Source: Oscillospiraceae bacterium (GTDB taxonomy: Bacteria; Bacillota; Clostridia; UBA1212). Taken from it: 64,000 nucleotides of DNA. Shown piece by piece: positions 1 through 48,919 of the stretch. Both the position numbers and the translations under genes were made by a program. The notes below the pieces were generated by a model. That model saw only the letters and a program-made list of their open reading frames with translations, did no database searches and was not told the origin of the DNA. Numbering within the stretch: the first letter of the stretch is position 1; each line of letters starts with the position of its first letter. Location: positions 14,148-78,147 of the forward strand of contig SVJA01000001.1 in the NCBI GenBank assembly GCA_015069195.1. Direction: 5' to 3'.

Positions 1-633
1 CGGCTCCGGAAGTGAATAATCTTTATTAACACCGTTTACATCAATTGTAAACGCAGGGCTCAGTACAGACGGCTCGTCATCCGCCATCACGGAATTACGG
101 ATTTCGCAGTAATATACATAGCCTTCATAATCTTTAGTCACCTTATCTATTGTAACGGTTGTAAAAAAAGGATCTTCAATCTTTATAATGTCACTTCCGT
201 CATTTTTATTTAAAAACCATGTTATCTCTTCGGCAAAATCTACATCAATTGAAAACTTCAAAGGCTTTCCTAAATCAGCCGTAACGGTAATATCTTTATC
301 CGGACTTTTTATGGTAGGCTTCTCCATCTTTGTCCAATGTGCAAATACTGTGGTATTCTCATCAAAAACGTACGTATCATTAACCCAACTCGGCTCTTCC
401 GGATCAATGTGCCAACCGCCGAAAATATATCCCGGACGCGTAGCAGCAGGCAATGTATCAATGGTACCATCATCCTTTGTCATAAGACTTTCCGTTACAC
501 AAAGACCGCCGTTTCCGTCAAATATAACCTTAAAACTGCCTTCTGCGGACACTGTAAACGGACACATAAAAGTCGCAAGCATTGCAATCAAAACAAGCAT
601 TGCGCACAATCTTTTTGACACAAATTTTTTCAT
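1..633 (-). CDS. Secreted protein with a Listeria/Bacteroides-type (Flg_new) repeat and an Ig-like region; partial, C-terminus lies beyond the window start
   Basis: Not in the ORF track because it runs off the window edge. Minus-strand ATG at 631-633 is preceded by GGAGTG. Translation starts MKKFVSKRLCAMLVLIAMLATFMCPFTVSAEG (signal peptide) and includes GYIFGGWHIDPE...TTVFAHW, matching the Flg_new repeat. The frame stays open to position 1. Confidence 0.6.
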   Translation of the reverse strand, partial: MKKFVSKRLCAMLVLIAMLATFMCPFTVSAEGSFKVIFDGNGGLCVTESLMTKDDGTIDTLPAATRPGYIFGGWHIDPEEPSWVNDTYVFDENTTVFAHWTKMEKPTIKSPDKDITVTADLGKPLKFSIDVDFAEEITWFLNKNDGSDIIKIEDPFFTTVTIDKVTKDYEGYVYYCEIRNSVMADDEPSVLSPAFTIDVNGVNKDYSLPEP

Positions 634-776
634 ATATAAAATCACTCCGTATGATTTTTCTGTTAACTGATTTACTCCGACAATGATACATTATTATTAA
701 AAATCGAGCAATTATTTTTTCACTTGATAAAGGCGTATAAAATTTTTATACTAAATAGAAAAGGAGACACCGGCGT

Positions 777-896
777 ATGACTGAAAAAGAATTGACAGTA
801 GAAGAAAAAATTGAAATTGCTTATTCACTTTTCGGAATTATCCCGAACGATTTCCCGATAGACGAAGCTTTAGAAGAAAGATTAAACTCTATTTAA
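777..896 (+). CDS. Small hypothetical protein (39 aa, MTEKELTVEEKIEIAYSLFGIIPNDFPIDEALEERLNSI)
   Basis: ATG at 777 with AAAGGAG 10 nt upstream. Below the ORF-track size cut-off. Its 3' end converges on and overlaps the stop of the decarboxylase gene by 8 nt. Confidence 0.3.
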   Translation: MTEKELTVEEKIEIAYSLFGIIPNDFPIDEALEERLNSI

Positions 897-2253
897 CCAC
901 CGCAACCGTCTCAATACCGTAATATTCAAAACATTTTACAGCACTTTCATCTATAACCTCTCCGCACACTACTACAGGCACGGCAGGGGGGCAATTTACG
1001 CTCGGAGCAGCCGATATTCTACCGACAGACTCTTTTACCGAAACTATTTCAAAAGGCGCCATAACTGCCTGTTTCAAGCTCATGCAAACCTTTGGCACAC
1101 ACAATCTCGGTATTTGATCACAAATACCGGGCTTTTTGTTAATTTCTGCAAATACATTCGTCAAATAATCAATACTTTCAACGCTGATTTGCGGTGTAAA
1201 CATCATTACAACAAAATCGGGATCCGAAAATTCACAAACAATATTTTTACTTTTTAAAATATCGGCAAAATCATTTCCTCTGTATCCGTAAGGCTTAGTT
1301 TTTAAAGTAAGTTTCAGCGGCTCACACCCGACCGTTTCATACCCTTTTGAATCAAGAAATTCCTTCAAAATTTTAACACGCTCTATTGTTTCCGAAAGTG
1401 CCGAAGAAAATTTATCAGAAAGATATTCATTCATCAAATCAAGAGATTGCAATATAAGATACGAAGGACTTGTAGAAGCAAACATTGACATCGCAAAAGA
1501 AGCATTTTTTACAAAGAATTCATCCGCATTTTTTGAAATATGCAAATATGCAGCTCCCGTAAGCGCCGGCAAAGTCTTATGAGCAGAATCACAACATAAG
1601 TCAGCACCTAAGTCTATAGGATGCAAAGACTTCGGCAAAAATTTAAGATATGCACCGTGTGCATTATCGACAAGAAGCAAAACTCCGCGACTCTTACATA
1701 CACGACTTATTTCTTCTATATCAGCAACATTTCCCAGATAGTCAGGGCTTGTTATATAAAGTGCAACCGGCTTAACTTCTGCAAGAACTCGGTCAAGTTC
1801 GTTCAAATCAAAATCATACGACAGTATATTCCCACCGGTTGAAAATATCCATTTAACATCAATATCAAGGAGCGCCGCGGCTGTGACAAATGTTTTGTGC
1901 GAATTACGCGGCGCGACAATACAATTATTTTTGCCGTGCAATGCGGCGTATTGACTTGTCATAAAAAGCATTGCACGAATACAAAGTGACGACCCTTCCG
2001 TTGAAAAAAGTGTTGCTCCGCTTCCGAACAAATCCGATGTTATTTTTTCGCTACGGCGTATTATCCCGTTTGAAACGTCGCAGCCAGGAACCGCAGTTGT
2101 ATCATAAAGTACATCCGCACCGTCAATTTCAGTTATATCAAAGCTTTCAGGGCCGACAAAAGACACACCCTTGTGACCGGGCATATGAAGTCGAACAGTT
2201 TCACTATCAATGTACTCTTTTACAAAATCACATATCGGTGTCTTTGAATTCAT
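889..2253 (-). CDS. PLP-dependent Orn/Lys/Arg decarboxylase family protein (B. subtilis YaaO-like)
   Basis: HMPGHKG motif and DSAHKTLPALTG (PLP-lysine region) typical of the OKR_DC_1 fold. Its start ATG directly abuts the stop of the upstream rSAM gene (TAAATG), with a GGAGAGG RBS inside that gene's 3' end. Confidence 0.85.
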   Translation of the reverse strand: MNSKTPICDFVKEYIDSETVRLHMPGHKGVSFVGPESFDITEIDGADVLYDTTAVPGCDVSNGIIRRSEKITSDLFGSGATLFSTEGSSLCIRAMLFMTSQYAALHGKNNCIVAPRNSHKTFVTAAALLDIDVKWIFSTGGNILSYDFDLNELDRVLAEVKPVALYITSPDYLGNVADIEEISRVCKSRGVLLLVDNAHGAYLKFLPKSLHPIDLGADLCCDSAHKTLPALTGAAYLHISKNADEFFVKNASFAMSMFASTSPSYLILQSLDLMNEYLSDKFSSALSETIERVKILKEFLDSKGYETVGCEPLKLTLKTKPYGYRGNDFADILKSKNIVCEFSDPDFVVMMFTPQISVESIDYLTNVFAEINKKPGICDQIPRLCVPKVCMSLKQAVMAPFEIVSVKESVGRISAAPSVNCPPAVPVVVCGEVIDESAVKCFEYYGIETVAVVK

Positions 2254-3636
2254 TTAATCCTCTCCGAGAGCCTTTGATACTTCAAGATATATTGCACATT
2301 CCATACGCTTTTTGAACAACTCACAGCCCTGAAAATAAATGCCTTTAACAGAACCTGTGGCGTGATATGAGTTTGCCGCACAACCGCCGGAGCAATAAAG
2401 CTTTGCCCAGCAATCGTTACACTCTTCTCTAGCGTAAACATTGCACGAAGCAAATTCATTTTGAATCTCTTTGTTTGTAACACCCATCCAGATGTCACCC
2501 AAGCGGAACTTTTCATCTCCTACGAATTGGTGACAGGGATAAAGGTCACCCCAAGGGGTAACTGCCATATACTCTGTACCGGAACCGCAACCGGAAAGAC
2601 GCTTATATATACAAGGGCCGCCTGTGAGGTCTATCATATAGTGATAGAAAGTAAAAGGATCGCCTTCGCGATATTTTTTGAGCATAAGTTCCGCAAGCTT
2701 TTCGTACTGCTCTTTTACGATAGCCATATCGTCTTCTGTAAGAGCAGAGGGATCATCCGGAGGGCAAACGACAGGCTCCATACTGAGCTCTTTGAAACCG
2801 AGCTCAAGCATTTTTTCTATATCTTTAAGAAAGTCGGGATTTGCGTGTGTGAATGTACCGCGCATATAGTAATTTTTACCGCCGCGTGCCGATACAAGCT
2901 GTTGGAATTTAGGAACAATACGCTCCCAGCTGCCGTTGCCGGCATAGTCAACACGGAATCTGTCATGAACTTCTTTTCTGCCGTCAAGACTCAAAACAAC
3001 ATTACTCATTTCACGGTTAGCAAAGTCGATAACATCATCATCTATCAAAACACCGTTTGTGGTAAGAGTAAATCTGAAATTCTTTCCTGCCGCCTTTTCA
3101 ACAGAACGCGCATACTCTACGAGTTTCTTTACCACGTCAAAATTCATAAGCGGTTCTCCGCCGAAGAAGTCAACTTCTAAGTTTCTTCTGCTGCCGGAAT
3201 TCTCAATCAAAAAGTCAAGTGCTCTCTTACCGACTTCGAAGCTCATAAGACCTCTTTCACCGGAATATTTTCCCTGACTTGCAAAGCAGTAAGAACAGTT
3301 GAGATTACAGGTATGCGCTATATGAAGGCACAGCGCCTTTACGACATTTGCACTTCTCTCTTTAAGTTCGCCTGCAAGATGTCTGTGTGTGTCTTCTTTA
3401 AATAATTTTCCGCAAGCTTTAAGCTCACCTATCTGATCATAACATTCGGAAAGTTCATCTTGCGTCACACCTTCGGTATCGCCAAACTTTTCGAGCATCG
3501 CAGCGATTATCTCTTCGCGGCTATAATCCTCGTACATTCCGATCATCTCATACGCAATCTCGTCTACTGCATGGACAGAACCCGAATTTATATCAAGTAC
3601 AATATTCTGCCCGCCCATTTTATATCTATGTATCAT
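2254..3636 (-). CDS. Radical SAM/SPASM maturase of the SCIFF peptide (thioether-forming, CteB-like)
   Basis: CNLNCSYC (CxxxCxxC) radical-SAM motif and a C-terminal Cys-rich SPASM region (CGSG...CHQ...CNDCWAKLYCSGGC). N-terminus MIHRYKMGGQNIVLDINSGSVHAVDE is typical of SCIFF maturases. The precursor is encoded immediately upstream. Confidence 0.9.
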   Translation of the reverse strand: MIHRYKMGGQNIVLDINSGSVHAVDEIAYEMIGMYEDYSREEIIAAMLEKFGDTEGVTQDELSECYDQIGELKACGKLFKEDTHRHLAGELKERSANVVKALCLHIAHTCNLNCSYCFASQGKYSGERGLMSFEVGKRALDFLIENSGSRRNLEVDFFGGEPLMNFDVVKKLVEYARSVEKAAGKNFRFTLTTNGVLIDDDVIDFANREMSNVVLSLDGRKEVHDRFRVDYAGNGSWERIVPKFQQLVSARGGKNYYMRGTFTHANPDFLKDIEKMLELGFKELSMEPVVCPPDDPSALTEDDMAIVKEQYEKLAELMLKKYREGDPFTFYHYMIDLTGGPCIYKRLSGCGSGTEYMAVTPWGDLYPCHQFVGDEKFRLGDIWMGVTNKEIQNEFASCNVYAREECNDCWAKLYCSGGCAANSYHATGSVKGIYFQGCELFKKRMECAIYLEVSKALGED

Positions 3637-3673
3637 AATTCTTATTTCCTCAATTCATCGATGTTTATACCGT

Positions 3674-3708
3674 AAAAATGCCGCCTTTTTTCAAAAAGGC
3701 GGCATTTT
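3674..3708 (-). terminator. Palindromic hairpin with a short T-tract between the SCIFF precursor and its maturase (likely partial terminator/attenuator)
   Basis: aaaatgccgcctttttt-c-aaaaaaggcggcatttt is a near-perfect palindrome followed on the minus strand by TTTT. It is then followed by a GAGGAAAT RBS for the maturase. Confidence 0.5.
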
Positions 3709-3727
3709 ATAGCAATATAGTGATTTA

Positions 3728-3877
3728 TTACTTCGCCTTAGCGTTTTCGCAAGCCTGGTTAGCAACACCGCAGCTTGTCTTGCAAGCTGACTGGCAGGAA
3801 GTCTGGCACTCGCCGCATCCGCCGTTTTTTGCACTCTTGCACAAATCACGAGTTTCTAAAGTTTTGATGTGTTTCAT
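3728..3877 (-). CDS. SCIFF (six-cysteines-in-forty-five) ribosomal peptide precursor, 49 aa
   Basis: Hand translation of the minus strand gives MKHIKTLETRDLCKSAKNGGCGECQTSCQSACKTSCGVANQACENAKAK. The GGCGECQTSCQSACKTSC core is the SCIFF signature. GGAGG lies 9 nt upstream of this ATG; an in-frame ATG two codons further up (3883) has poor spacing. Missing from the ORF track because it is under 60 aa. Confidence 0.85.
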   Translation of the reverse strand: MKHIKTLETRDLCKSAKNGGCGECQTSCQSACKTSCGVANQACENAKAK

Positions 3878-4033
3878 ATCCATCAACCTCCAAGATAATT
3901 CAAAATTATGTGATTATACTATCACAACGAGGCTTTTAAGTCAAACAAATAGTAATAAGTTGTCTTTATTATGAATAACTTTTTCTGTGTAAAGGCAATA
4001 CTTTACTATATAAACATTTCACGGGGTGATTTT

Positions 4034-4288
4034 ATGAAGGCAACCGAACTTATTGCAACCGTAAAAAACGGTATCAGTAAAAAATTTTCCAAGCCGCCCG
4101 AATGCGAAGCGGATTATCTGCGCAGGGAAATAAGGGAGACGAAGGAGCAAATTGAACTTGCTAATCTGCACTTTAATGACGCATCTGACAAAGATATGAT
4201 TTCATACTACGCATATATGATCAAGGCTTTTGAAGTCAAATACAACTCGCTTATCAGGAGAGCCAAAGATTTGAATTCCGGAAGCTGA
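4034..4288 (+). CDS. DUF2508 (YaaL-like) small protein
   Basis: ORF-track entry 3971..4288 trimmed to the internal MKATELIA start. The ISYYAYMIKAFEVKYNSLIRRAK tail resembles the YaaL/DUF2508 C-terminus. In B. subtilis, yaaL lies in the same conserved neighbourhood as yaaO. Confidence 0.45.
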   Translation: MKATELIATVKNGISKKFSKPPECEADYLRREIRETKEQIELANLHFNDASDKDMISYYAYMIKAFEVKYNSLIRRAKDLNSGS

Positions 4289-4367: not shown

Positions 4368-5096
4368 GTGGTGTTTGTTTTGGGAATTTTCAGAAGATTG
4401 AAATCGGTTATAAACGGTTTCTTTGAATCATTTACAACAAAGACAGAAGAAAAAAATCCGGAGTACCTGATAGCCGACACAGAAAGTCAAATCAAAAAAT
4501 GTAAAAAAGAAGCTCAAAAGCAATTGATTGAAGTTCAGACATGGGCAGAAACAGTAAAAATCGATATGAGGGATGCTGAAAAAAGGCTGTCAGACACAAG
4601 GCGCAAAATTCAGCTTGCAGTAAAAGAAAACAACAAAGAATTACTCGTCGAACTTCTTATGCGCGAGGAAGAATTCGAAAAGCTCTACGATGACAGAAAA
4701 CAGCTTTATGACGCAGCGGTAAATGAAGCCATCAGAATACGCGATGATTTCAAGCAATTTGAAAATGATATGAATACAAAACTTTACGAACTCCAAACAA
4801 TGCGTTCCCAGAGTAAACTTGTCATTCTCCGCGAACAGATACAAAGCATCGGTAATTCTTATGAGACAGCATCTGGCGGTAATATAAAAGACAAAATCGA
4901 TTCACTCAAAAGTTCATTAAACACACGTTGTGCCAGAATAATTGCAACGGAGCAACTTAATTCCGAGGACAACGGCCTTCGATACAAACGACTTGATTAC
5001 GCTGCAAAAAAGGATCGCGCAGCTCTTCGCGCAACAGAAATTCTCAGATTGGAAAATGCTTCCGCAGACAAACCAAAACTTGACATGGCACATTAA
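4368..5096 (+). CDS. pspA: PspA/IM30 family protein (phage shock protein A-like)
   Basis: GIFRRLKSVINGFFES N-terminus followed by a long coiled coil typical of PspA/IM30. The track start is a GTG; the true start may be the nearby TTG. Confidence 0.75.
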   Translation: MVFVLGIFRRLKSVINGFFESFTTKTEEKNPEYLIADTESQIKKCKKEAQKQLIEVQTWAETVKIDMRDAEKRLSDTRRKIQLAVKENNKELLVELLMREEEFEKLYDDRKQLYDAAVNEAIRIRDDFKQFENDMNTKLYELQTMRSQSKLVILREQIQSIGNSYETASGGNIKDKIDSLKSSLNTRCARIIATEQLNSEDNGLRYKRLDYAAKKDRAALRATEILRLENASADKPKLDMAH

Positions 5097-5648: not shown

Positions 5649-8228
5649 ATGAAATTCTGCAAAAAATTCATTGCGCCGTTGGTGTTTATTATATTTGTGA
5701 CAACCTACATATTGACATTGACTGATTTTGCGACAATATCAGACAGATTGCATACATTGAAAAGTTTTGCAACGACCAATAATGTTTCCGTTGCTGATGA
5801 TGTTTATGCCTCTGCTAATGATCACTCACCTATTTCAATTTCGCGCGGAGATTCCGTTGCTATAAGATTTCGTACCAACGAATCTTTTTCATCAATTACA
5901 ATCCACTGTCCGAGCTGGAACGACAACATCGGCAGCCTGTATTTTGCTATGTACGAATGGCAATCAGGCTACACAAAAACCGTACGTTCCACACCTGTTG
6001 CTACACAAACTTTTGAAAATTTCAAAGACAACGATGCTCTTACTTTGTCTTTCGCGGAAGTGCCCGCAGGAAACTACATGTTAGCAATCACTAATCCCAA
6101 CCCCACCGACAATATGGTAGGTGTATGGTACTATCCGTCAGAACATGACAAAATTGATTTTTATCGAAACGGAACTCTCTCGAAAGGAAGTCTGCATGGA
6201 TATATTACAACCTCGTCAAACAATATCGAAAACTTCTTTGCAAACAAAGTTTCAGTTGATGTCAACCCCGGAAACTGGGATGCCGTAGACGGACTCGGCA
6301 GAGAACTTTCAAGTGATGTTTCAAAGCGCCAGGAAAAATTTGTCGGAATGTTTTTCTGGACGTGGCATGACAATTTTATTGCATCAAAACCGCGCATTGC
6401 GTCTAAAATCGTTGAACAATATCCCGAAGCGGTAAATGATTTCAGCCATTTTGCGTGGGAAAACACACCGGCCGGCACTCCGTATTTTTGGGACGAACCG
6501 ATTTTCGGATTTTACAAATCAAGCGACAAGTATGTTCTGCGACGCCAAGCGGAGCTTCTGGCAGATGCGGATATAGATGTGATAATTTTTGATTGCACAA
6601 ACGGCACTTACCTTTGGGAAAGCGCATATACTGTTCTTTTCGAAGTTTTTGAAGAAGCAAAATATGACGGTATTGATGTTCCTCAGATTGCCTTTATGCT
6701 TAACTTTTCCGGAAATTCCAACTCAAAATACCAATTAATACAACTATACGACAATATTTACAGTCAAAACCTTTACAGCGATCTCTGGTTCTATTGGGAA
6801 GGCAAACCGCTCATCATGGCACATCCCGAAGCACTCGATGTAAGCGACTATGCTATAAGCACAGAAAAATACTATGCCATCAAAAATTTCTTCACATTCA
6901 GAAGAAATGTAGGTTCGTACTTTTCAGACGACACCTATGATTCAACTGATTATTGGGGCTGGTGTGCAAACTATCCGCAGACGAAACACGGCATCAGATA
7001 TAACGGAACGGTTGAACAGGTAACGGTTTCGGTTGCACAAAACTCTACTGACACGCAATTGGTTGCGATGAACAGCCCCATAGAAGGTATTCACGGCAGA
7101 AGCTACACAAAAGATTATTACTCCTACTCTTTTAAAAAAGCCGGTGAAATAGTTACGGTAGATTCCGATACTGAAAATTCAATGTTCTACGGTCTTAATT
7201 TCCAGCAACAGTGGGACTATGCAATTTCTGTCGACCCTGACTTCATATTCGTTACAGGCTGGAACGAATGGGTTGCAGGCAGACACGAAGAATGGGGCGG
7301 CACAATCAACGCATTCCCCGACCAATTCTCACCGGAATACAGCCGAGACATTGAACCTTCAAGCGGTGTACTCAAAGACTACTATTATTATCAGCTCGTT
7401 GAAAATGTGCGTCGATTCAAAGGAACGTCTTCCACCAATGAAACAGTCTCAAAAAAATCGATAAAACTTTCATCCGGCGCAGATGCATGGCACAACATTT
7501 CAACATCGTACGACGACTACAACGATAGTGAGGAAGGCCGTAACAGTAACGGCTACGGCGATATGTACTACACAGCCGACGCAGTCCGCAATGACATCGT
7601 TCATTCAAAATTCGCGTACGACTCCGACAACTTGTACTTTATGGTGCAAACAGAAAATGAACTGACACCATACACAGACAATAACTGGATGAACTTGCTG
7701 CTCAGCATAGACGGCGGAGGAAATAATGCTTGGGAAACCTTTGACTTTATAATCAACAGGACAACGCCGACATCCTCTAAAGTGACTATTGAAGCATTCG
7801 TAAACAATAGCTGGACCTTCACAACCGTAGGCACGGCAGATTACATAATTGACGGGGACACGCTCGTAATTTCAATACCGAAGACATTGATCGGCATCAC
7901 CGGCACAAATCTTCCTGTAATAAACTTCAAATGGATAGACGGTGTCGATTTAAACGGTGACTTTATGAACCTCTACGGCTACGGCGAATCTGCACCAAAC
8001 AACAGATTCACATACAGAATAGACACAGCAGAAGGGCTCGAAGTTGTAGAAGACATACTTGGTGATGTAAACGGCAACGCCGAACTCGACATACAGGATG
8101 CCGCAATCATCTACAGCGGTATCTCCGGGAAGAGAAAACTCGATGACTACCAGACAATCATTGCTGACATAAACACCGACGGCAAAATCAATATACTTGA
8201 TGTAATGAGGGTATTACTCTTAATATAA
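5649..8228 (+). CDS. Secreted putative glycoside hydrolase with a C-terminal type-I dockerin (cellulosome/amylosome component)
   Basis: Signal/TM segment MKFCKKFIAPLVFIIFVTTYILT. Central Trp/Tyr-rich region (FWTWHDNF, FIFVTGWNEWVAGRHEEWGG) suggests a carbohydrate-active fold. C-terminal duplicated Ca-binding segments DVNGNAELDIQDAAII and DINTDGKINILDVMRV form a dockerin. Confidence 0.75.
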   Translation: MKFCKKFIAPLVFIIFVTTYILTLTDFATISDRLHTLKSFATTNNVSVADDVYASANDHSPISISRGDSVAIRFRTNESFSSITIHCPSWNDNIGSLYFAMYEWQSGYTKTVRSTPVATQTFENFKDNDALTLSFAEVPAGNYMLAITNPNPTDNMVGVWYYPSEHDKIDFYRNGTLSKGSLHGYITTSSNNIENFFANKVSVDVNPGNWDAVDGLGRELSSDVSKRQEKFVGMFFWTWHDNFIASKPRIASKIVEQYPEAVNDFSHFAWENTPAGTPYFWDEPIFGFYKSSDKYVLRRQAELLADADIDVIIFDCTNGTYLWESAYTVLFEVFEEAKYDGIDVPQIAFMLNFSGNSNSKYQLIQLYDNIYSQNLYSDLWFYWEGKPLIMAHPEALDVSDYAISTEKYYAIKNFFTFRRNVGSYFSDDTYDSTDYWGWCANYPQTKHGIRYNGTVEQVTVSVAQNSTDTQLVAMNSPIEGIHGRSYTKDYYSYSFKKAGEIVTVDSDTENSMFYGLNFQQQWDYAISVDPDFIFVTGWNEWVAGRHEEWGGTINAFPDQFSPEYSRDIEPSSGVLKDYYYYQLVENVRRFKGTSSTNETVSKKSIKLSSGADAWHNISTSYDDYNDSEEGRNSNGYGDMYYTADAVRNDIVHSKFAYDSDNLYFMVQTENELTPYTDNNWMNLLLSIDGGGNNAWETFDFIINRTTPTSSKVTIEAFVNNSWTFTTVGTADYIIDGDTLVISIPKTLIGITGTNLPVINFKWIDGVDLNGDFMNLYGYGESAPNNRFTYRIDTAEGLEVVEDILGDVNGNAELDIQDAAIIYSGISGKRKLDDYQTIIADINTDGKINILDVMRVLLLI

Positions 8229-46320: not shown

Positions 46321-47604
46321 TTACAAAGGTTTTACAACCGACATCGCCGGTTCTTTCATATAAACGTTCTTAAGAACATTGTAGATGTCACTTTCGGTTA
46401 TTTTACCATACACATTGAAATAGTCAAATCCGTGAACTCCCTGTAGATACATCGAAGAAAACAGTTTTCCGACGCTTTCGGGAAATGTCAACATTCTTAT
46501 ATCACTGCCGAGCAACGATCTTTTTATACGAGTAAACGAAACTTTATCAATTCCTTTTGAGGCAGTTTCCGAAATATATTCGTTCACATATTTTAAAAGT
46601 TCCTCGGGATCGTCAGATTCGCCGCTCAAGGAAGCGCAGGCATAATTTCTGTCAAGTTCAAAATCACTTGCAAAACTGTAATCTATAAGACCTTTTTCGT
46701 ACATTTTTTCAAAGAAATCAGAACTTTTGTCAAAAAGCATATTGCACAATATATTGCCGGCAAGTCCGTGAATGAGATATTCGTCACCCTTTAAAACAGA
46801 CGGATCATTTTTATAACCGATAGCAAACATGGGCCTTGATACATCCATTTTCTGCTCCGATCGATATCCGACAACCGAATCAGGTTCGCATTCAAAATAT
46901 TTCTGCGGAATTTCTTTCAACGGAATACTGTCAAAGTTTTTACACACTGCATCATATATACGGTTAACATCGAGGTCGCCGACTACCGTGAGAACCATAT
47001 TTGACGGAACATAAAAATTCTCGTAGCAAAGCATAAGATCTGACGGTGTCGTATCCGTAACGCTCTTTACCGAACCTGCTATTTCTTTTTTCACGGGGTT
47101 ATTGTGATAGATAAGTTTAAAGAGGTTCATCGAAGAAACATATTCCGGATTGTCCTCATACATTTTTATTTCACGGCAGATGATGCCTTTTTCTTTTTCG
47201 ACATTCTCCGGTGTGATATACGGATGTGTCACGAAATGAAGAAGCATATCAAAACTTTTATCAAAATTATCCGTACAATTTATATAATAATATGTCTTTG
47301 AAAATCCCGTAGCAGCATTCGTCCTTGCACCTGCAGCATTGAATTTTTCAAGCATGTTTCCTTCAGGCTGTTCAAAAAGTTTATGTTCCAGAAAGTGCGC
47401 TACGCCATCGGGAACAGTCGTAATCTGCAATTTCCCGGGCAAAATGAACTTCGTATTTACCGATCCGAAACCGACCGACAATATGGCAAATTTTTTGTAT
47501 GTGCCCGCTTTAGGAATAAATTGAACTTTGAGCCCCGAAGAATGTGTGAACTCGTAAAGTTTTTCTCCGAGCTTTAAATTTTCCGTAAGTTTAATATTAC
47601 TCAT
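46321..47604 (-). CDS. M16 family zinc peptidase (active, HxxEH)
   Basis: GVAHFLEHKLFE inverted zinc-binding motif. Confidence 0.8.
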   Translation of the reverse strand: MSNIKLTENLKLGEKLYEFTHSSGLKVQFIPKAGTYKKFAILSVGFGSVNTKFILPGKLQITTVPDGVAHFLEHKLFEQPEGNMLEKFNAAGARTNAATGFSKTYYYINCTDNFDKSFDMLLHFVTHPYITPENVEKEKGIICREIKMYEDNPEYVSSMNLFKLIYHNNPVKKEIAGSVKSVTDTTPSDLMLCYENFYVPSNMVLTVVGDLDVNRIYDAVCKNFDSIPLKEIPQKYFECEPDSVVGYRSEQKMDVSRPMFAIGYKNDPSVLKGDEYLIHGLAGNILCNMLFDKSSDFFEKMYEKGLIDYSFASDFELDRNYACASLSGESDDPEELLKYVNEYISETASKGIDKVSFTRIKRSLLGSDIRMLTFPESVGKLFSSMYLQGVHGFDYFNVYGKITESDIYNVLKNVYMKEPAMSVVKPL

Positions 47605-48919
47605 CGTTATCCTCCTTTGTACCTTTCAGGAAGAATACCGTATCAAGCTGTATTCGCTTCGCAACTTCCGGAAGCTGCTCTTTTTTTACTTTCTCGATAT
47701 TTGCTATATACTCATCCAGTGTATAACTTCTGTTGAGGAAAGACTGGTCAAGATAATAATCAAGCAAAGCATACTGATCTTCTGCCATATTCTTAAGATT
47801 ATTTATAATATTTTTCTTTGCCGCCTCAAACTCTTCATCGGTGATATTACCTTTCTTTATCTCGTCAAGTTGCTCAAGTATTATGGCCTTGGCCGTATCA
47901 AATTTATCAGGGGAAATACCTGCCGACACAAACATAACACCTTTAACTGCAGAAACCCGCGAACCGGCATAATATGCAAGACTGTTTTTCTCTCTGACGT
48001 TTGTGAAAAGTTTTGACGATGTACCTCCGCCGTAAACTGTATTCATCAGCACAAGAGGAAAGAATCCATCTGAATCCTGCGGAGTATTTGTTCGGAATCC
48101 CATAACAAGTTTTCCGTCTGATATTTCACATTCTTCCGTAACAAATTTAACTTCGCTATCCGGGATATAATGCTTTTCGACATAATCTATATATGCGCCA
48201 CCTCGCACGCCGTCACCGAAAATACCTGTCTCGGCGGCTTCTTTAAACATTTCCACGAGCGCATCAGGGCGTTTCTTTCCGCAGTAAAAGATTCTGCACG
48301 GAACCTTCTTTAAAAAGTAATTTTTATAATAGGAATAAAGATCCTCCGCAGTCAATTTTTCACTGTCTCCCAAATAACCCAGCTCCGAAACGGCAAAAGC
48401 CTCGCCTTCAAACATAATCTCACGAGCGCGGGTCATCGCATAGTGGCGTTTATCATTCTTTTCCGCCGCTATATCGTTATTTAAATTTGTACATTCCTGT
48501 TCGAAATAACTTGACATAAATCCGTTATTCTCCGTAACAGGCTCCGTAAGCACTTTCAATATAAGCTTAAAAGATTCTTCTGAAAGAAAATCTTCCGAAA
48601 TATCCTCTCCGCCCTCAAAAGATGAAACGTATTCATCCTTCAAAAAATCCGCCATAAAAAGCATATGGTGAATTTCGCTTCGTTTGCCCACATCAGTCAA
48701 AAAGACCGTTCCGAAGAGTTCCTGACACTTTACCGTCAAATCCTTTGATGTAGGGAAATCCGAGCATCCTCGCCACAAAAGTGCCGGAAGCACCGCATTT
48801 TTGTATGCACGTTCCCTGTCCAGCCTGTCGCAAAAATTCACTGCAACAGTATCCGACTTAAACGAATTATTTTCTACATAATAAAATTCAATTCCGCAAA
48901 TCTCGGCAATTCTTTCCAT
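47597..48919 (-). CDS. M16 family peptidase partner subunit (no HxxEH, probably non-catalytic)
   Basis: M16-like length and fold cues. Lacks the zinc motif. Overlaps the active partner by 8 nt (B. subtilis ymfF/ymfH-like pair). Confidence 0.65.
   Translation of the reverse strand: MERIAEICGIEFYYVENNSFKSDTVAVNFCDRLDRERAYKNAVLPALLWRGCSDFPTSKDLTVKCQELFGTVFLTDVGKRSEIHHMLFMADFLKDEYVSSFEGGEDISEDFLSEESFKLILKVLTEPVTENNGFMSSYFEQECTNLNNDIAAEKNDKRHYAMTRAREIMFEGEAFAVSELGYLGDSEKLTAEDLYSYYKNYFLKKVPCRIFYCGKKRPDALVEMFKEAAETGIFGDGVRGGAYIDYVEKHYIPDSEVKFVTEECEISDGKLVMGFRTNTPQDSDGFFPLVLMNTVYGGGTSSKLFTNVREKNSLAYYAGSRVSAVKGVMFVSAGISPDKFDTAKAIILEQLDEIKKGNITDEEFEAAKKNIINNLKNMAEDQYALLDYYLDQSFLNRSYTLDEYIANIEKVKKEQLPEVAKRIQLDTVFFLKGTKEDNDE

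What the first reader, a model, noticed from the sequence alone, without database searches (positions are those of the whole stretch)
2254..3883. SCIFF ribosomal peptide precursor (missed by the ORF track) with its radical-SAM/SPASM maturase, translationally coupled to a PLP decarboxylase
Hand translation of 3877..3728 (minus) gives MKHIKTLETRDLCKSAKNGGCGECQTSCQSACKTSCGVANQACENAKAK. This is the SCIFF signature and lies directly upstream of a CxxxCxxC/SPASM enzyme. A palindromic hairpin (3674-3708) between precursor and enzyme looks like a stoichiometry-setting attenuator. The maturase stop and the decarboxylase start form TAAATG, implying co-translation. SCIFF is a described family but the function of the mature peptide is still unknown. 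This copy has 7 Cys and a distinct C-terminal tail (GVANQACENAKAK).
Basis: partly seen in the sequence, partly recalled or inferred. Interest (0 to 1): 0.55.

Follow-up and report, generated by a model that had tools for sequence, protein, structure and literature searches.

The report
SCIFF peptide operon with PLP-enzyme partner
This is an ordinary, already catalogued SCIFF ribosomal-peptide gene with its radical-SAM maturase, but in this gut-Clostridia lineage the pair nearly always sits beside an uncharacterised PLP enzyme, which may be a lead to the peptide's poorly understood function.

Summary
The ORF 3877..3728(-) encodes a 49-aa SCIFF precursor (TIGR03973 83 bits, cut-off 50). The ORF 3636..2254(-) is its maturase ScfB (TIGR03974 746 bits, cut-off 425; 53% identical to CteB). 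All ten CteB Fe-S cysteine ligands are kept. The 3675-3708 hairpin has the shape of an intrinsic terminator. It recurs at the same place in 73 of 80 related loci, with compensatory changes, which supports a precursor/enzyme attenuator. The TAAATG junction with the downstream PLP-enzyme gene (2253..889) is real. In relatives, 73 of 79 such junctions overlap or lie within 10 nt.

Two claims of distinctness fail. The seventh (leader) Cys and the GVANQxCEN tail are typical of this lineage. A quorum-sensing/sporulation role for SCIFF has already been reported. The real difference from the biochemically studied SCIFFs is Gly37 in place of the reported acceptor Thr37, and hundreds of relatives share it.

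The most interesting result lies outside the original claim. Flanking genes are not conserved among relatives, yet a PLP gene of the Orn/Lys/Arg-decarboxylase family (OKR_DC_1) abuts scfAB in 42 of 43 fully flanked metagenome loci, upstream or downstream. It is absent from three Acetivibrio-type loci. I found no report of this link. Its function is untested.

The parts
3916..3944 (-). Promoter-like site: TTGACT, 17-nt spacer, TG-n-TAGTAT (extended -10), about 40 nt upstream of the scfA start
   Evidence: This is a consensus scan only, read against the sequence. The number of promoter-like sites in the region does not exceed the shuffled expectation, so it is a candidate and not a demonstrated promoter.
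3887..3891 (-). Shine-Dalgarno GGAGG, 9 nt before the scfA ATG
   Evidence: Read directly from the sequence.
3728..3877 (-). scfA: 49-aa SCIFF ranthipeptide precursor (leader about residues 1-20 ending in GG; Cys-rich core 21-49), followed by tandem TAA TAA stops
   Evidence: TIGR03973 83 bits (cut-off 50) and PF13165 84.8 bits (cut-off 27). There are 5800 database homologues. The gene is called and carries a Pfam SCIFF hit on identical public contigs.
3675..3708 (-). Conserved intrinsic-terminator-like hairpin (15-bp stem, 4-nt loop, U5 at 3678-3674). It starts 19 nt after the scfA stop and ends 38 nt before the scfB start. Proposed partial terminator.
   Evidence: Fold z-score -4.3. Its core is unique in the window. 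A terminator-like hairpin sits at the same place in 73 of 80 genome loci and 53 of 75 metagenome loci. In the alignment, 96.4% of cells pair, 7 of 9 pairs show compensatory changes, and 0 of 500 shuffles reach the observed values. No Rfam family matches.
3647..3651 (-). Shine-Dalgarno GAGGA, 10 nt before the scfB ATG
   Evidence: Read directly from the sequence.
2254..3636 (-). scfB: 460-aa radical SAM/SPASM thioether-forming SCIFF maturase. Radical-SAM cluster ligands C110/C114/C117; auxiliary cluster 1 C350/C368/C419; auxiliary cluster 2 C406/C409/C415/C438; N-terminal leader-binding (RRE-like) region.
   Evidence: TIGR03974 746.5 bits (cut-off 425); not_ScfB 566 bits, below its 855 cut-off. 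CteB structure 5WGG matches at E = 3e-165 over the full length. The protein is 53% identical to CteB and all 10 cluster ligands align (ligand list from PMC10177961). The PqqD hit is weak, 18.6 bits against a 23.4 cut-off.
2259..2265 (-). Shine-Dalgarno-like GGAGAGG inside the last codons of scfB, 5 nt before the ATG of the PLP gene. The stop and start codons abut (TAA 2256-2254, ATG 2253-2251).
   Evidence: Read directly from the sequence. Junctions overlap in 55 of 79 related loci and lie 0-10 nt apart in 18 of 79.
889..2253 (-). 454-aa fold-type I PLP enzyme of the Orn/Lys/Arg-decarboxylase family (short 'ancestral' form). The putative PLP lysine is K226, in the motif S-A-H-K. The substrate is unknown.
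   Evidence: PF01276 109.6 bits (cut-off 27) and PF03711 25.4 bits; no NCBIfam model reaches its cut-off. The closest solved structure is 2X3L, SAR0482 (E = 2.6e-28). D196, H199, S223, H225 and K226 are invariant in 72 homologues. An identical protein in NCBI is named only 'aminotransferase class V-fold PLP-dependent enzyme [Ruminococcaceae bacterium]'.

Best explanation
This is a chromosomal SCIFF (six-cysteine ranthipeptide) operon of an uncultured Ruminococcaceae/Oscillospirales bacterium. Some steps below are shown and some are inferred.

Shown by sequence and homology: scfA encodes the precursor, and scfB encodes a CteB-type radical SAM/SPASM enzyme with a complete set of ligands for three [4Fe-4S] clusters.

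Inferred from the characterised homologues CteB and Tte1186: ScfB binds the leader. It cleaves SAM to give a 5'-deoxyadenosyl radical, abstracts a side-chain hydrogen from an acceptor residue, and joins it to a cysteine sulfur as a non-alpha thioether. Residue 37 is Gly here, so the acceptor cannot be the Thr37 reported in vitro. Thr34, the partner of Cys32 found by co-expression in E. coli, is the most likely acceptor.

Inferred from anatomy and conservation: one promoter upstream of scfA drives the operon. The conserved terminator hairpin stops most transcripts after scfA, which gives a large excess of precursor message. A read-through fraction carries scfB and the PLP gene. The PLP gene is translated by ribosomes that terminate on scfB and restart at the abutting ATG.

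Inferred from gene neighbourhood only: the PLP enzyme works in the same pathway or programme as the peptide. Its reaction is unknown.
For: Family membership of both core genes is well above the curated cut-offs. ScfB matches the CteB structure over its full length and all ten cluster ligands align.

The hairpin is conserved in position in 73 of 80 genome loci and 53 of 75 metagenome loci. It shows compensatory changes in 7 of 9 pairs, and 0 of 500 shuffles reach the observed values. Only about 30 nt (median) separate the hairpin from the scfB start, and 38 nt here. The scan finds no promoter match in that interval. Three Acetivibrio-type loci also carry a terminator-like hairpin between scfA and scfB, but with a different stem, so the architecture is wider than this lineage.

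The scfB/PLP junction overlaps or lies within 10 nt in 73 of 79 loci.

Across 80 species-level genomes, the only recurrent protein clusters around the locus are scfB and the PLP gene. No flanking family recurs in more than 10 loci, and the few that recur at all (7-10 loci) appear to be spurious ORFs overlapping scfA or scfB. In an independent metagenome sample, 42 of 43 loci with both flanks present have an OKR_DC_1 gene directly beside scfAB: 27 downstream, 14 upstream and 1 on both sides. Three look-ups that started from the PLP protein all landed next to scfAB, each with different flanks.

Gly37 occurs in 242 of 243 near relatives, while Thr34 and Thr26 are invariant.
Against: There are no expression, termination or mass-spectrometry data for this or any related locus. 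The hairpin could be a full terminator, with scfB transcribed from a weak promoter the scan cannot see. It could also mainly stabilise the 3' end of the scfA message.

Four of the five U residues can pair with the upstream A run, and the tool's own terminator scan did not list the site.

The PLP link is not family-wide. It is absent from three Acetivibrio/Ruminiclostridium/Pseudoclostridium loci and from L087/L088. The adjacent PLP genes fall into two paralogous groups that are only 27-32% identical.

A PLP decarboxylase needs a free alpha-amino acid, and a peptide does not obviously offer one. No terminator was found after the PLP gene, so the 3' end of the operon is undefined.
Confidence: 0.85

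Rival explanations
1. The PLP gene is an ordinary amino-acid decarboxylase (polyamine or cadaverine/agmatine synthesis) that merely shares a transcript with scfAB. The adjacency reflects co-regulation or inherited gene order, not a shared pathway.
For: The protein belongs to the Orn/Lys/Arg decarboxylase family and has intact PLP-binding residues. Short 'ancestral' members of this fold include genuine Arg, Orn and Lys decarboxylases (PMC8503589). The link is missing in Acetivibrio-type loci and in L087/L088. Decarboxylation of a residue inside a peptide is chemically awkward for a PLP enzyme.
Against: The flanks are scrambled while the PLP gene stays attached in 78 of 80 genome loci and 42 of 43 metagenome loci, in two different arrangements and with two paralogues. 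No polyamine genes (speB, speD, speE) appear beside it in the loci whose neighbours carry Pfam labels. It scores no more than 35 bits against any NCBIfam decarboxylase model. The downstream-type proteins have an invariant Cys where 2X3L and the L089 upstream-type paralogue have Tyr in the YPPGIP motif.
Confidence: 0.4
2. The hairpin is a complete terminator that ends a monocistronic scfA transcript. On this view scfB and the PLP gene are expressed from their own promoter, so there is no attenuation.
For: The stem is strong (about -21 kcal/mol) and is followed by U5. Some relatives have long scfA-scfB spacers of 140-1037 nt that could hold a promoter.
Against: Here only 38 nt lie between the hairpin and the scfB ATG, and the median in relatives is about 30 nt. 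That leaves room for a ribosome-binding site but not for a promoter plus leader. No promoter-like match falls there.
Confidence: 0.2
3. The radical SAM enzyme is not a SCIFF maturase but another SPASM enzyme (anaerobic sulfatase maturase, sactisynthase, PapB/QhpD-type or the 'not_ScfB' orphan), and the small ORF is a chance Cys-rich reading frame.
For: All of these families give significant partial hits, because they share the radical SAM/SPASM architecture.
Against: Only TIGR03974 exceeds its cut-off. The others fall short: not_ScfB 566 against 855, PapB 280 against 340, QhpD 264 against 453, anSME 116 against 349, RumMC 120 against 720. The peptide scores 83 bits against a cut-off of 50 and is conserved upstream of scfB in 78 of 80 genome loci.
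Confidence: 0.01

Closest known systems
CteA/CteB (thermocellin) of Acetivibrio thermocellus, and Tte1186a/Tte1186 of Caldanaerobacter subterraneus: the biochemically and structurally characterised SCIFF systems
   Same: The precursor family and Cys spacing are the same (C-x2-C-x3-C-x3-C-x3-C-x6-C). The maturase is 53% identical to CteB over its full length, with identical cluster ligands. A terminator-like hairpin lies between precursor and enzyme in both.
   Different: Residue 37 is Gly here, not the Thr reported as acceptor in vitro. There is an extra leader Cys13 and a longer Lys/Glu-rich tail. The genomic setting differs. Two of the three Acetivibrio-type loci (Ruminiclostridium, Pseudoclostridium) lie between queA-tgt-yajC-DUF3792 and secDF. 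The A. thermocellus locus also has secDF downstream but different upstream genes (SBP_bac_5, Peptidase_A8, a pseudouridine synthase). In all three the gene after scfB is an HD-domain or gamma-carbonic-anhydrase-like protein, not a PLP enzyme. The hairpin stem sequence also differs.
PapA/PapB (freyrasin) and QhpD: the related ranthipeptide and protein thioether-forming radical SAM enzymes
   Same: They share the radical SAM/SPASM architecture and non-alpha thioether chemistry. The enzyme here gives strong partial hits to both (280 and 264 bits).
   Different: Both scores are below the family cut-offs. PapB acts on Cys-x3-Asp motifs, which the core peptide here lacks (its only Asp is D11 in the leader); the core is the SCIFF type.
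YaaO of Bacillus subtilis and SAR0482 of Staphylococcus aureus (PDB 2X3L): short AAT-fold decarboxylase homologues not involved in polyamine synthesis
   Same: 2X3L is the closest solved structure to the PLP enzyme, with the same size class and the same S-x-H-K lysine motif. YaaO influences a protein modification, the 5-aminopentanol on EF-P Lys32, in a pathway that also involves the gene yfkA (PMC5885033, PMC8503589). From my own knowledge, not checked here, YfkA is a radical SAM protein. This is a precedent for such enzymes serving post-translational chemistry.
   Different: The match is only 102 bits. The paralogue found upstream of scfA in other lineages is closer, at 158-166 bits. yaaO orthologues are recognised by lying immediately upstream of tmk, and there is no tmk here. 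Orthology is not established.
Precursor-proximal partial terminators in other ribosomal-peptide operons, for example after nisA and sboA (recalled from my own knowledge, not checked here)
   Same: A stem-loop sits directly after a short precursor gene and before the modification genes, and is thought to set a high ratio of precursor to enzyme.
   Different: Read-through has not been measured for any SCIFF locus. Here the evidence is conservation and covariation only.

Membership tests
SCIFF precursor (TIGR03973 / PF13165) | Score above the curated model cut-off | tested here: met
   TIGR03973 83 bits against 50; PF13165 84.8 bits against 27. The full model length is matched.
SCIFF precursor (TIGR03973 / PF13165) | Peptide of about 45 aa with six Cys in the spacing C-x2-C-x3-C-x3-C-x3-C-x6-C after a GG-ended leader | tested here: met
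   C21, C24, C28, C32, C36 and C43 follow G19-G20. The extra C13 lies in the leader.
SCIFF precursor (TIGR03973 / PF13165) | Encoded directly upstream of a ScfB-type radical SAM enzyme, in Clostridia | tested here: met
   The gap to scfB is 91 nt. The same pairing occurs in 78 of 80 related genome loci, all titled Clostridia, Oscillospiraceae, Ruminococcus or similar.
SCIFF precursor (TIGR03973 / PF13165) | Carries Thr37, the acceptor of the Cys32 thioether reported in vitro for CteA and Tte1186a (a property of the characterised members, not of the family model) | tested here: not met
   Residue 37 is Gly here and in 242 of 243 near relatives. Thr34, the acceptor found by co-expression, is present (PMC8326336 and PMC8172795).
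SCIFF precursor (TIGR03973 / PF13165) | The mature peptide contains a non-alpha thioether | not testable with these tools
   Needs mass spectrometry or NMR.
ScfB maturase (TIGR03974) | Score above the equivalog cut-off and below the 'not_ScfB' exception cut-off | tested here: met
   746.5 bits against 425; NF040492 566.5 bits against 855.
ScfB maturase (TIGR03974) | CxxxCxxC radical SAM motif plus seven Cys ligands for two auxiliary [4Fe-4S] clusters | tested here: met
   C110/114/117, C350/368/419 and C406/409/415/438 align with CteB C104/108/111, C344/362/413 and C400/403/409/432 (ligand list from PMC10177961).
ScfB maturase (TIGR03974) | N-terminal leader-recognition (RRE, PqqD-like) domain | tested here: inconclusive
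   The PqqD hit scores 18.6 bits, below the 23.4 cut-off. The N-terminus does align from residue 1 with CteB.
ScfB maturase (TIGR03974) | Thioether-forming activity on its SCIFF peptide | not testable with these tools
   Needs an enzyme assay or co-expression.
Orn/Lys/Arg decarboxylase family (PF01276 OKR_DC_1) | Pfam score above the gathering cut-off, with the PLP lysine in the S-x-H-K motif | tested here: met
   109.6 bits against 27. S223-A-H225-K226 aligns with the S-F-H-K motif of 2X3L and is invariant in 72 homologues.
Orn/Lys/Arg decarboxylase family (PF01276 OKR_DC_1) | Decarboxylase activity on a basic amino acid | not testable with these tools
   No NCBIfam decarboxylase model scores above 35 bits, against cut-offs of 299-1310 bits.
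YaaO orthologue group | Lies immediately upstream of tmk (the criterion used in PMC8503589) | tested here: not met
   The next gene is a secreted protein with Flg_new repeats, and there is no tmk.
Intrinsic (factor-independent) terminator | G+C-rich stem-loop followed by a U run | tested here: met
   15-bp stem with 6 G-C pairs, then U5. The simple scan did not list it, probably because four of the U residues can extend the stem.
Intrinsic (factor-independent) terminator | Causes termination, here partial, in vivo | not testable with these tools
   Needs 3'-end mapping or RNA-seq.

The most novel reading that the evidence does not exclude
In Oscillospirales-type Clostridia the SCIFF system has three components. 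On this reading, a dedicated PLP enzyme of the YaaO/SpeA-like short AAT-fold group is a functional partner of ScfA/ScfB. It would either tailor the peptide or an amino-acid moiety attached to it, or make or consume a small amine in the same signalling pathway. This would parallel YaaO's genetic role in building the EF-P lysine modification. The lineage-wide Gly37 would then mark a SCIFF subtype with its own cross-link pattern and chemistry.
Probability: 0.35. Interest if true: 0.6.

Novelty: new member of a known kind. Interest (0 to 1): 0.35.

Why it matters
SCIFF/ScfB is described as widespread across Clostridia (PMC8326336; bioRxiv 10.1101/2025.02.12.637840), including abundant gut and rumen species. 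Its product structure is still disputed: Cys32-Thr37 in vitro against Cys32-Thr34 in E. coli. Its physiological role rests on a single genetic study. This copy adds nothing to the family as such. The comparison it prompted gives three testable leads:
- Thr37 is naturally absent from a large SCIFF lineage, while Thr34 is invariant in the near relatives examined. This argues against Thr37 being a conserved acceptor.
- A sequence-conserved terminator between precursor and enzyme is a recurring feature of the locus.
- An uncharacterised PLP enzyme stays attached to scfAB through extensive genome rearrangement.

If the PLP enzyme is a true partner, it offers a new experimental handle on what SCIFF peptides do.

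Tried and rejected
- Other radical SAM families were considered and rejected because they score below their cut-offs: anSME, sactisynthases, PapB, QhpD, CcpM and the 'not_ScfB' orphan.
- Rfam gave nothing above threshold for 3500-4100. The only hits were sub-threshold matches of the hairpin to the terminator ends of sRNA models.
- The built-in terminator scan did not list the 3675-3708 hairpin. I therefore relied on folding and my own scans.
- I looked for an internal promoter between the hairpin and scfB. There is no match, and only 38 nt are available.
- I looked for a terminator after the PLP gene (690-895). The fold is no better than shuffled sequence, z = -0.09.
- I checked for a mobile-element or prophage context. 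The window carries AddB, MutS2, IF-2, an M18 aminopeptidase and M16 peptidases, so it is ordinary chromosome.
- A cysteine-desulfurase reading of the PLP enzyme was considered, because NCBI names it 'class V-fold'. Aminotran_5 scores only 29.5 bits against 109.6 for OKR_DC_1. This reading is not pursued, but it is not excluded.
- The representative-library search returned mostly over-extended ORF calls close to the query. It could not give a family-wide frequency of Gly37 against Thr37.
- The founding SCIFF paper (Haft & Basu 2011) is not held. Chen 2020 and Hudson 2019 were read only through reviews.
- Literature searches for SCIFF with 'decarboxylase' or 'pyridoxal' found no report of the PLP association. 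The library is incomplete, so this is weak evidence of novelty.
Full report
**What is there.** A GGAGG lies 9 nt before the ATG, and the ORF ends in two stop codons. The peptide scores 83 bits against TIGR03973 (cut-off 50) and 84.8 bits against Pfam SCIFF (cut-off 27), matching the full model length. A database search finds 5800 homologues, many named 'six-cysteine ranthipeptide SCIFF' by NCBI. The 460-aa ORF 3636..2254 starts 91 nt downstream. It scores 746.5 bits against the ScfB equivalog TIGR03974 (cut-off 425). It stays below the cut-offs of every other radical SAM/SPASM model, including the 'not_ScfB' exception model. It aligns end to end with the crystallised maturase CteB (5WGG, E = 3e-165) at 53% identity. 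All ten cysteines that bind the three [4Fe-4S] clusters in CteB are present.

**Where it comes from.** The third ORF's product is 100% identical to an NCBI protein from a 'Ruminococcaceae bacterium' MAG. The same locus occurs on many public metagenome contigs, and there the 49-aa gene is called and carries a SCIFF Pfam hit. The closest species-level genomes are Oscillospiraceae, Acutalibacteraceae and Ruminococcus MAGs from ruminant and human guts, with ScfB 75-80% identical. The rest of the window is ordinary chromosome: AddB, MutS2, IF-2 and peptidases.

The seventh Cys (C13, in the leader) is present in all 78 SCIFF peptides found upstream of scfB in the 80 related genome loci, and in 187 of 243 near database relatives. 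The motif G(I/V)ANQxCEN followed by a short Lys/Glu-rich tail is the norm. So neither feature is distinctive. What does separate this lineage from the characterised SCIFFs is residue 37. CteA and Tte1186a have Thr37, which in vitro work identified as the partner of Cys32. Co-expression in E. coli instead gave a Cys32-Thr34 S-C-gamma link, and the discrepancy is unresolved (PMC8326336, PMC8172795). Here, and in 242 of 243 near relatives, residue 37 is Gly, while Thr34 and Thr26 are invariant. The three Acetivibrio-type loci I fetched keep Thr37. A large natural SCIFF lineage therefore cannot use Thr37, which favours Thr34 or another residue as the conserved acceptor. This is an inference from sequence only. 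The statement that the function is unknown also needs updating. Disruption of the system in Clostridium beijerinckii altered sporulation and agr quorum-sensing genes (Chen 2020, as summarised in PMC8102284 and PMC8326336).

**The hairpin.** The segment 3708-3675 folds into a 15-bp stem with a 4-nt loop, followed by U5. The z-score is -4.3 against shuffles. Its GCCGCC..GGCGGC core occurs only once in the 64 kb window, and no Rfam family covers it. By strict criteria, a terminator-like hairpin lies between scfA and scfB in 73 of 80 related genome loci (counting the window) and in 53 of 75 more diverse metagenome loci. It usually starts about 10 nt after the stop codon and ends about 30 nt before the scfB start. 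Fifty-seven of the genome-locus hairpins and 35 of the metagenome-locus hairpins share the same stem core. In an alignment of 59 sequences, 96.4% of cells pair and 7 of 9 pairs show compensatory changes. The loop varies freely in length and sequence. No shuffle out of 500, and no slid register, reaches the observed values. The Acetivibrio-type loci also have a terminator-like hairpin in this spacer, with a different conserved stem (GTGAAAAG..CTTTTCAC-T6). The space after the hairpin holds a ribosome-binding site but no promoter match. Partial termination is therefore the most economical reading. It would give a large excess of precursor message and a read-through fraction that expresses the enzymes. 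It remains an inference, and a full terminator combined with an unrecognised promoter is not excluded.

**The PLP gene.** The ORF 2253..889 starts at the base after the scfB stop (TAAATG), with GGAGAGG 5 nt upstream inside scfB. It is a fold-type I PLP protein of the Orn/Lys/Arg-decarboxylase family (PF01276, 109.6 bits). The aspartate, histidine and S-x-H-K lysine expected at the PLP site are invariant in 72 homologues. No NCBIfam model classifies it, and NCBI gives it only a generic name. Its closest solved relative is SAR0482 (2X3L, 102 bits), the S. aureus homologue of B. subtilis YaaO. YaaO is a paralogue of arginine decarboxylase that does not contribute to polyamines. It influences the 5-aminopentanol modification of EF-P Lys32, in a pathway that also involves the gene yfkA (PMC8503589, PMC5885033). 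From my own knowledge, not checked here, YfkA is a radical SAM protein. Orthology to YaaO is not shown, because the tmk linkage used to recognise yaaO is absent.

**Is the coupling meaningful?**
- A homologue about 50% identical follows scfB in 78 of 80 genome loci. The junction overlaps (ATGA, TAATG or TGATG) in 55 of 79 loci and lies 0-10 nt apart in 18 of 79.
- The flanks are not conserved. Clustering all ORFs of the 80 loci gives only two recurrent families, scfB and the PLP gene. Nothing else recurs in more than 10 loci, and the few clusters at 7-10 loci appear to be spurious ORFs overlapping scfA or scfB.
- Three look-ups that started from the PLP protein all landed beside scfAB, each with different neighbours.
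- In lineages whose ScfB is 60-70% identical to this one, a different paralogue often lies immediately upstream of scfA instead. It is 461-512 aa, 27-32% identical to this protein, and scores 158-166 bits against 2X3L. A few loci have both paralogues.
- In an independent metagenome sample, 42 of 43 loci with both flanks available have such a gene directly beside scfAB: 27 downstream, 14 upstream and 1 on both sides.
- The link is absent from three Acetivibrio, Ruminiclostridium and Pseudoclostridium loci. Two of these sit between queA-tgt-yajC and secDF, and all three have secDF downstream. In each, scfB is followed by an HD-domain or gamma-carbonic-anhydrase-like gene. The link is also absent from L087/L088.

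Adjacency that survives rearrangement, in two arrangements, is good neighbourhood evidence for a functional or regulatory tie within this lineage. It says nothing about the reaction. A PLP decarboxylase needs a free alpha-amino acid, so direct action on the peptide backbone is unlikely. Action on a tethered or free amino acid, or simple co-regulation, are the alternatives. I found no mention of this association in the held literature. A 2026 preprint on clostridial ranthipeptide clusters reports only the precursor and the maturase as conserved.

**Verdict.** The finding is correct and its interpretation holds, but the core object is a routine member of a well-populated, automatically annotated family. 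The claimed distinctive features are typical of the lineage. The value added here is comparative: the conserved terminator, Gly37, and above all the persistent PLP-enzyme neighbour. I put the chance that the PLP enzyme is a genuine third component at about one in three.

Noticed in passing
L089:3455-4921, L093:3559-4944, L094:427-1965; also L095-L103, L115-L120 and others: In lineages with ScfB 60-70% identical to the window's, a second OKR_DC_1 paralogue lies immediately upstream of scfA on the same strand. It is 461-512 aa, only 27-32% identical to the window's PLP enzyme, and closer to 2X3L. L094 and L107 carry both the upstream and the downstream paralogue. In L105 and L110 the upstream-type gene sits downstream.
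   Followed up: partly
window 889-2253 (residue C421); 72 homologues from L001-L080: The downstream-type PLP enzymes have an invariant Cys-Pro-Pro where 2X3L and the L089 upstream-type paralogue have Tyr-Pro-Pro in the YPPGIP motif. A second Cys, C186, is also invariant. This may mean the active site has changed.
   Followed up: no
L081:5850-6000, L082:5862-6000, L083:5661-6000: The Acetivibrio, Ruminiclostridium and Pseudoclostridium SCIFF loci also have a terminator-like hairpin between scfA and scfB. Its conserved stem is different (GTGAAAAG..CTTTTCAC followed by T6), and the spacers are longer (139-340 nt).
   Followed up: partly
database proteins P0001, P0002, P0007, P0361, P0362 (P0007 = L093:5001-5201): Some SCIFF ORFs contain two leader or core units fused in one reading frame. 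They could be real tandem fusions or assembly/ORF-calling artefacts.
   Followed up: no
window 3725-3730: scfA ends in two consecutive in-frame stop codons (TAA TAA).
   Followed up: no
window 690-895 and 777-896(+): No terminator-like structure follows the PLP gene (fold z = -0.09), so the 3' end of the operon is undefined. A 39-aa plus-strand ORF overlaps the end of the PLP gene and is called as a gene on public contigs. It has no Pfam hit and looks spurious.
   Followed up: partly
window 3971-4288(+) and 4368-5096(+): A DUF2508 protein (28.5 bits) and a weak PspA/IM30-like protein (22.5 bits, below the cut-off) are transcribed divergently from scfA. Neither is conserved next to scfAB in the 80 related loci.
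   Followed up: partly
window 5649-8228(+) and 1-633(-): An 859-aa secreted protein with a C-terminal dockerin-type repeat, and a secreted protein with Flg_new repeats, flank the operon. This suggests a cellulosome-like surface system in this Ruminococcaceae bacterium.
   Followed up: no
window 46321-48919(-): A pair of M16-family peptidase genes lies about 42 kb from scfA. From my own knowledge, such pairs sometimes act as peptide-processing proteases. I have no evidence linking them to SCIFF.
   Followed up: no
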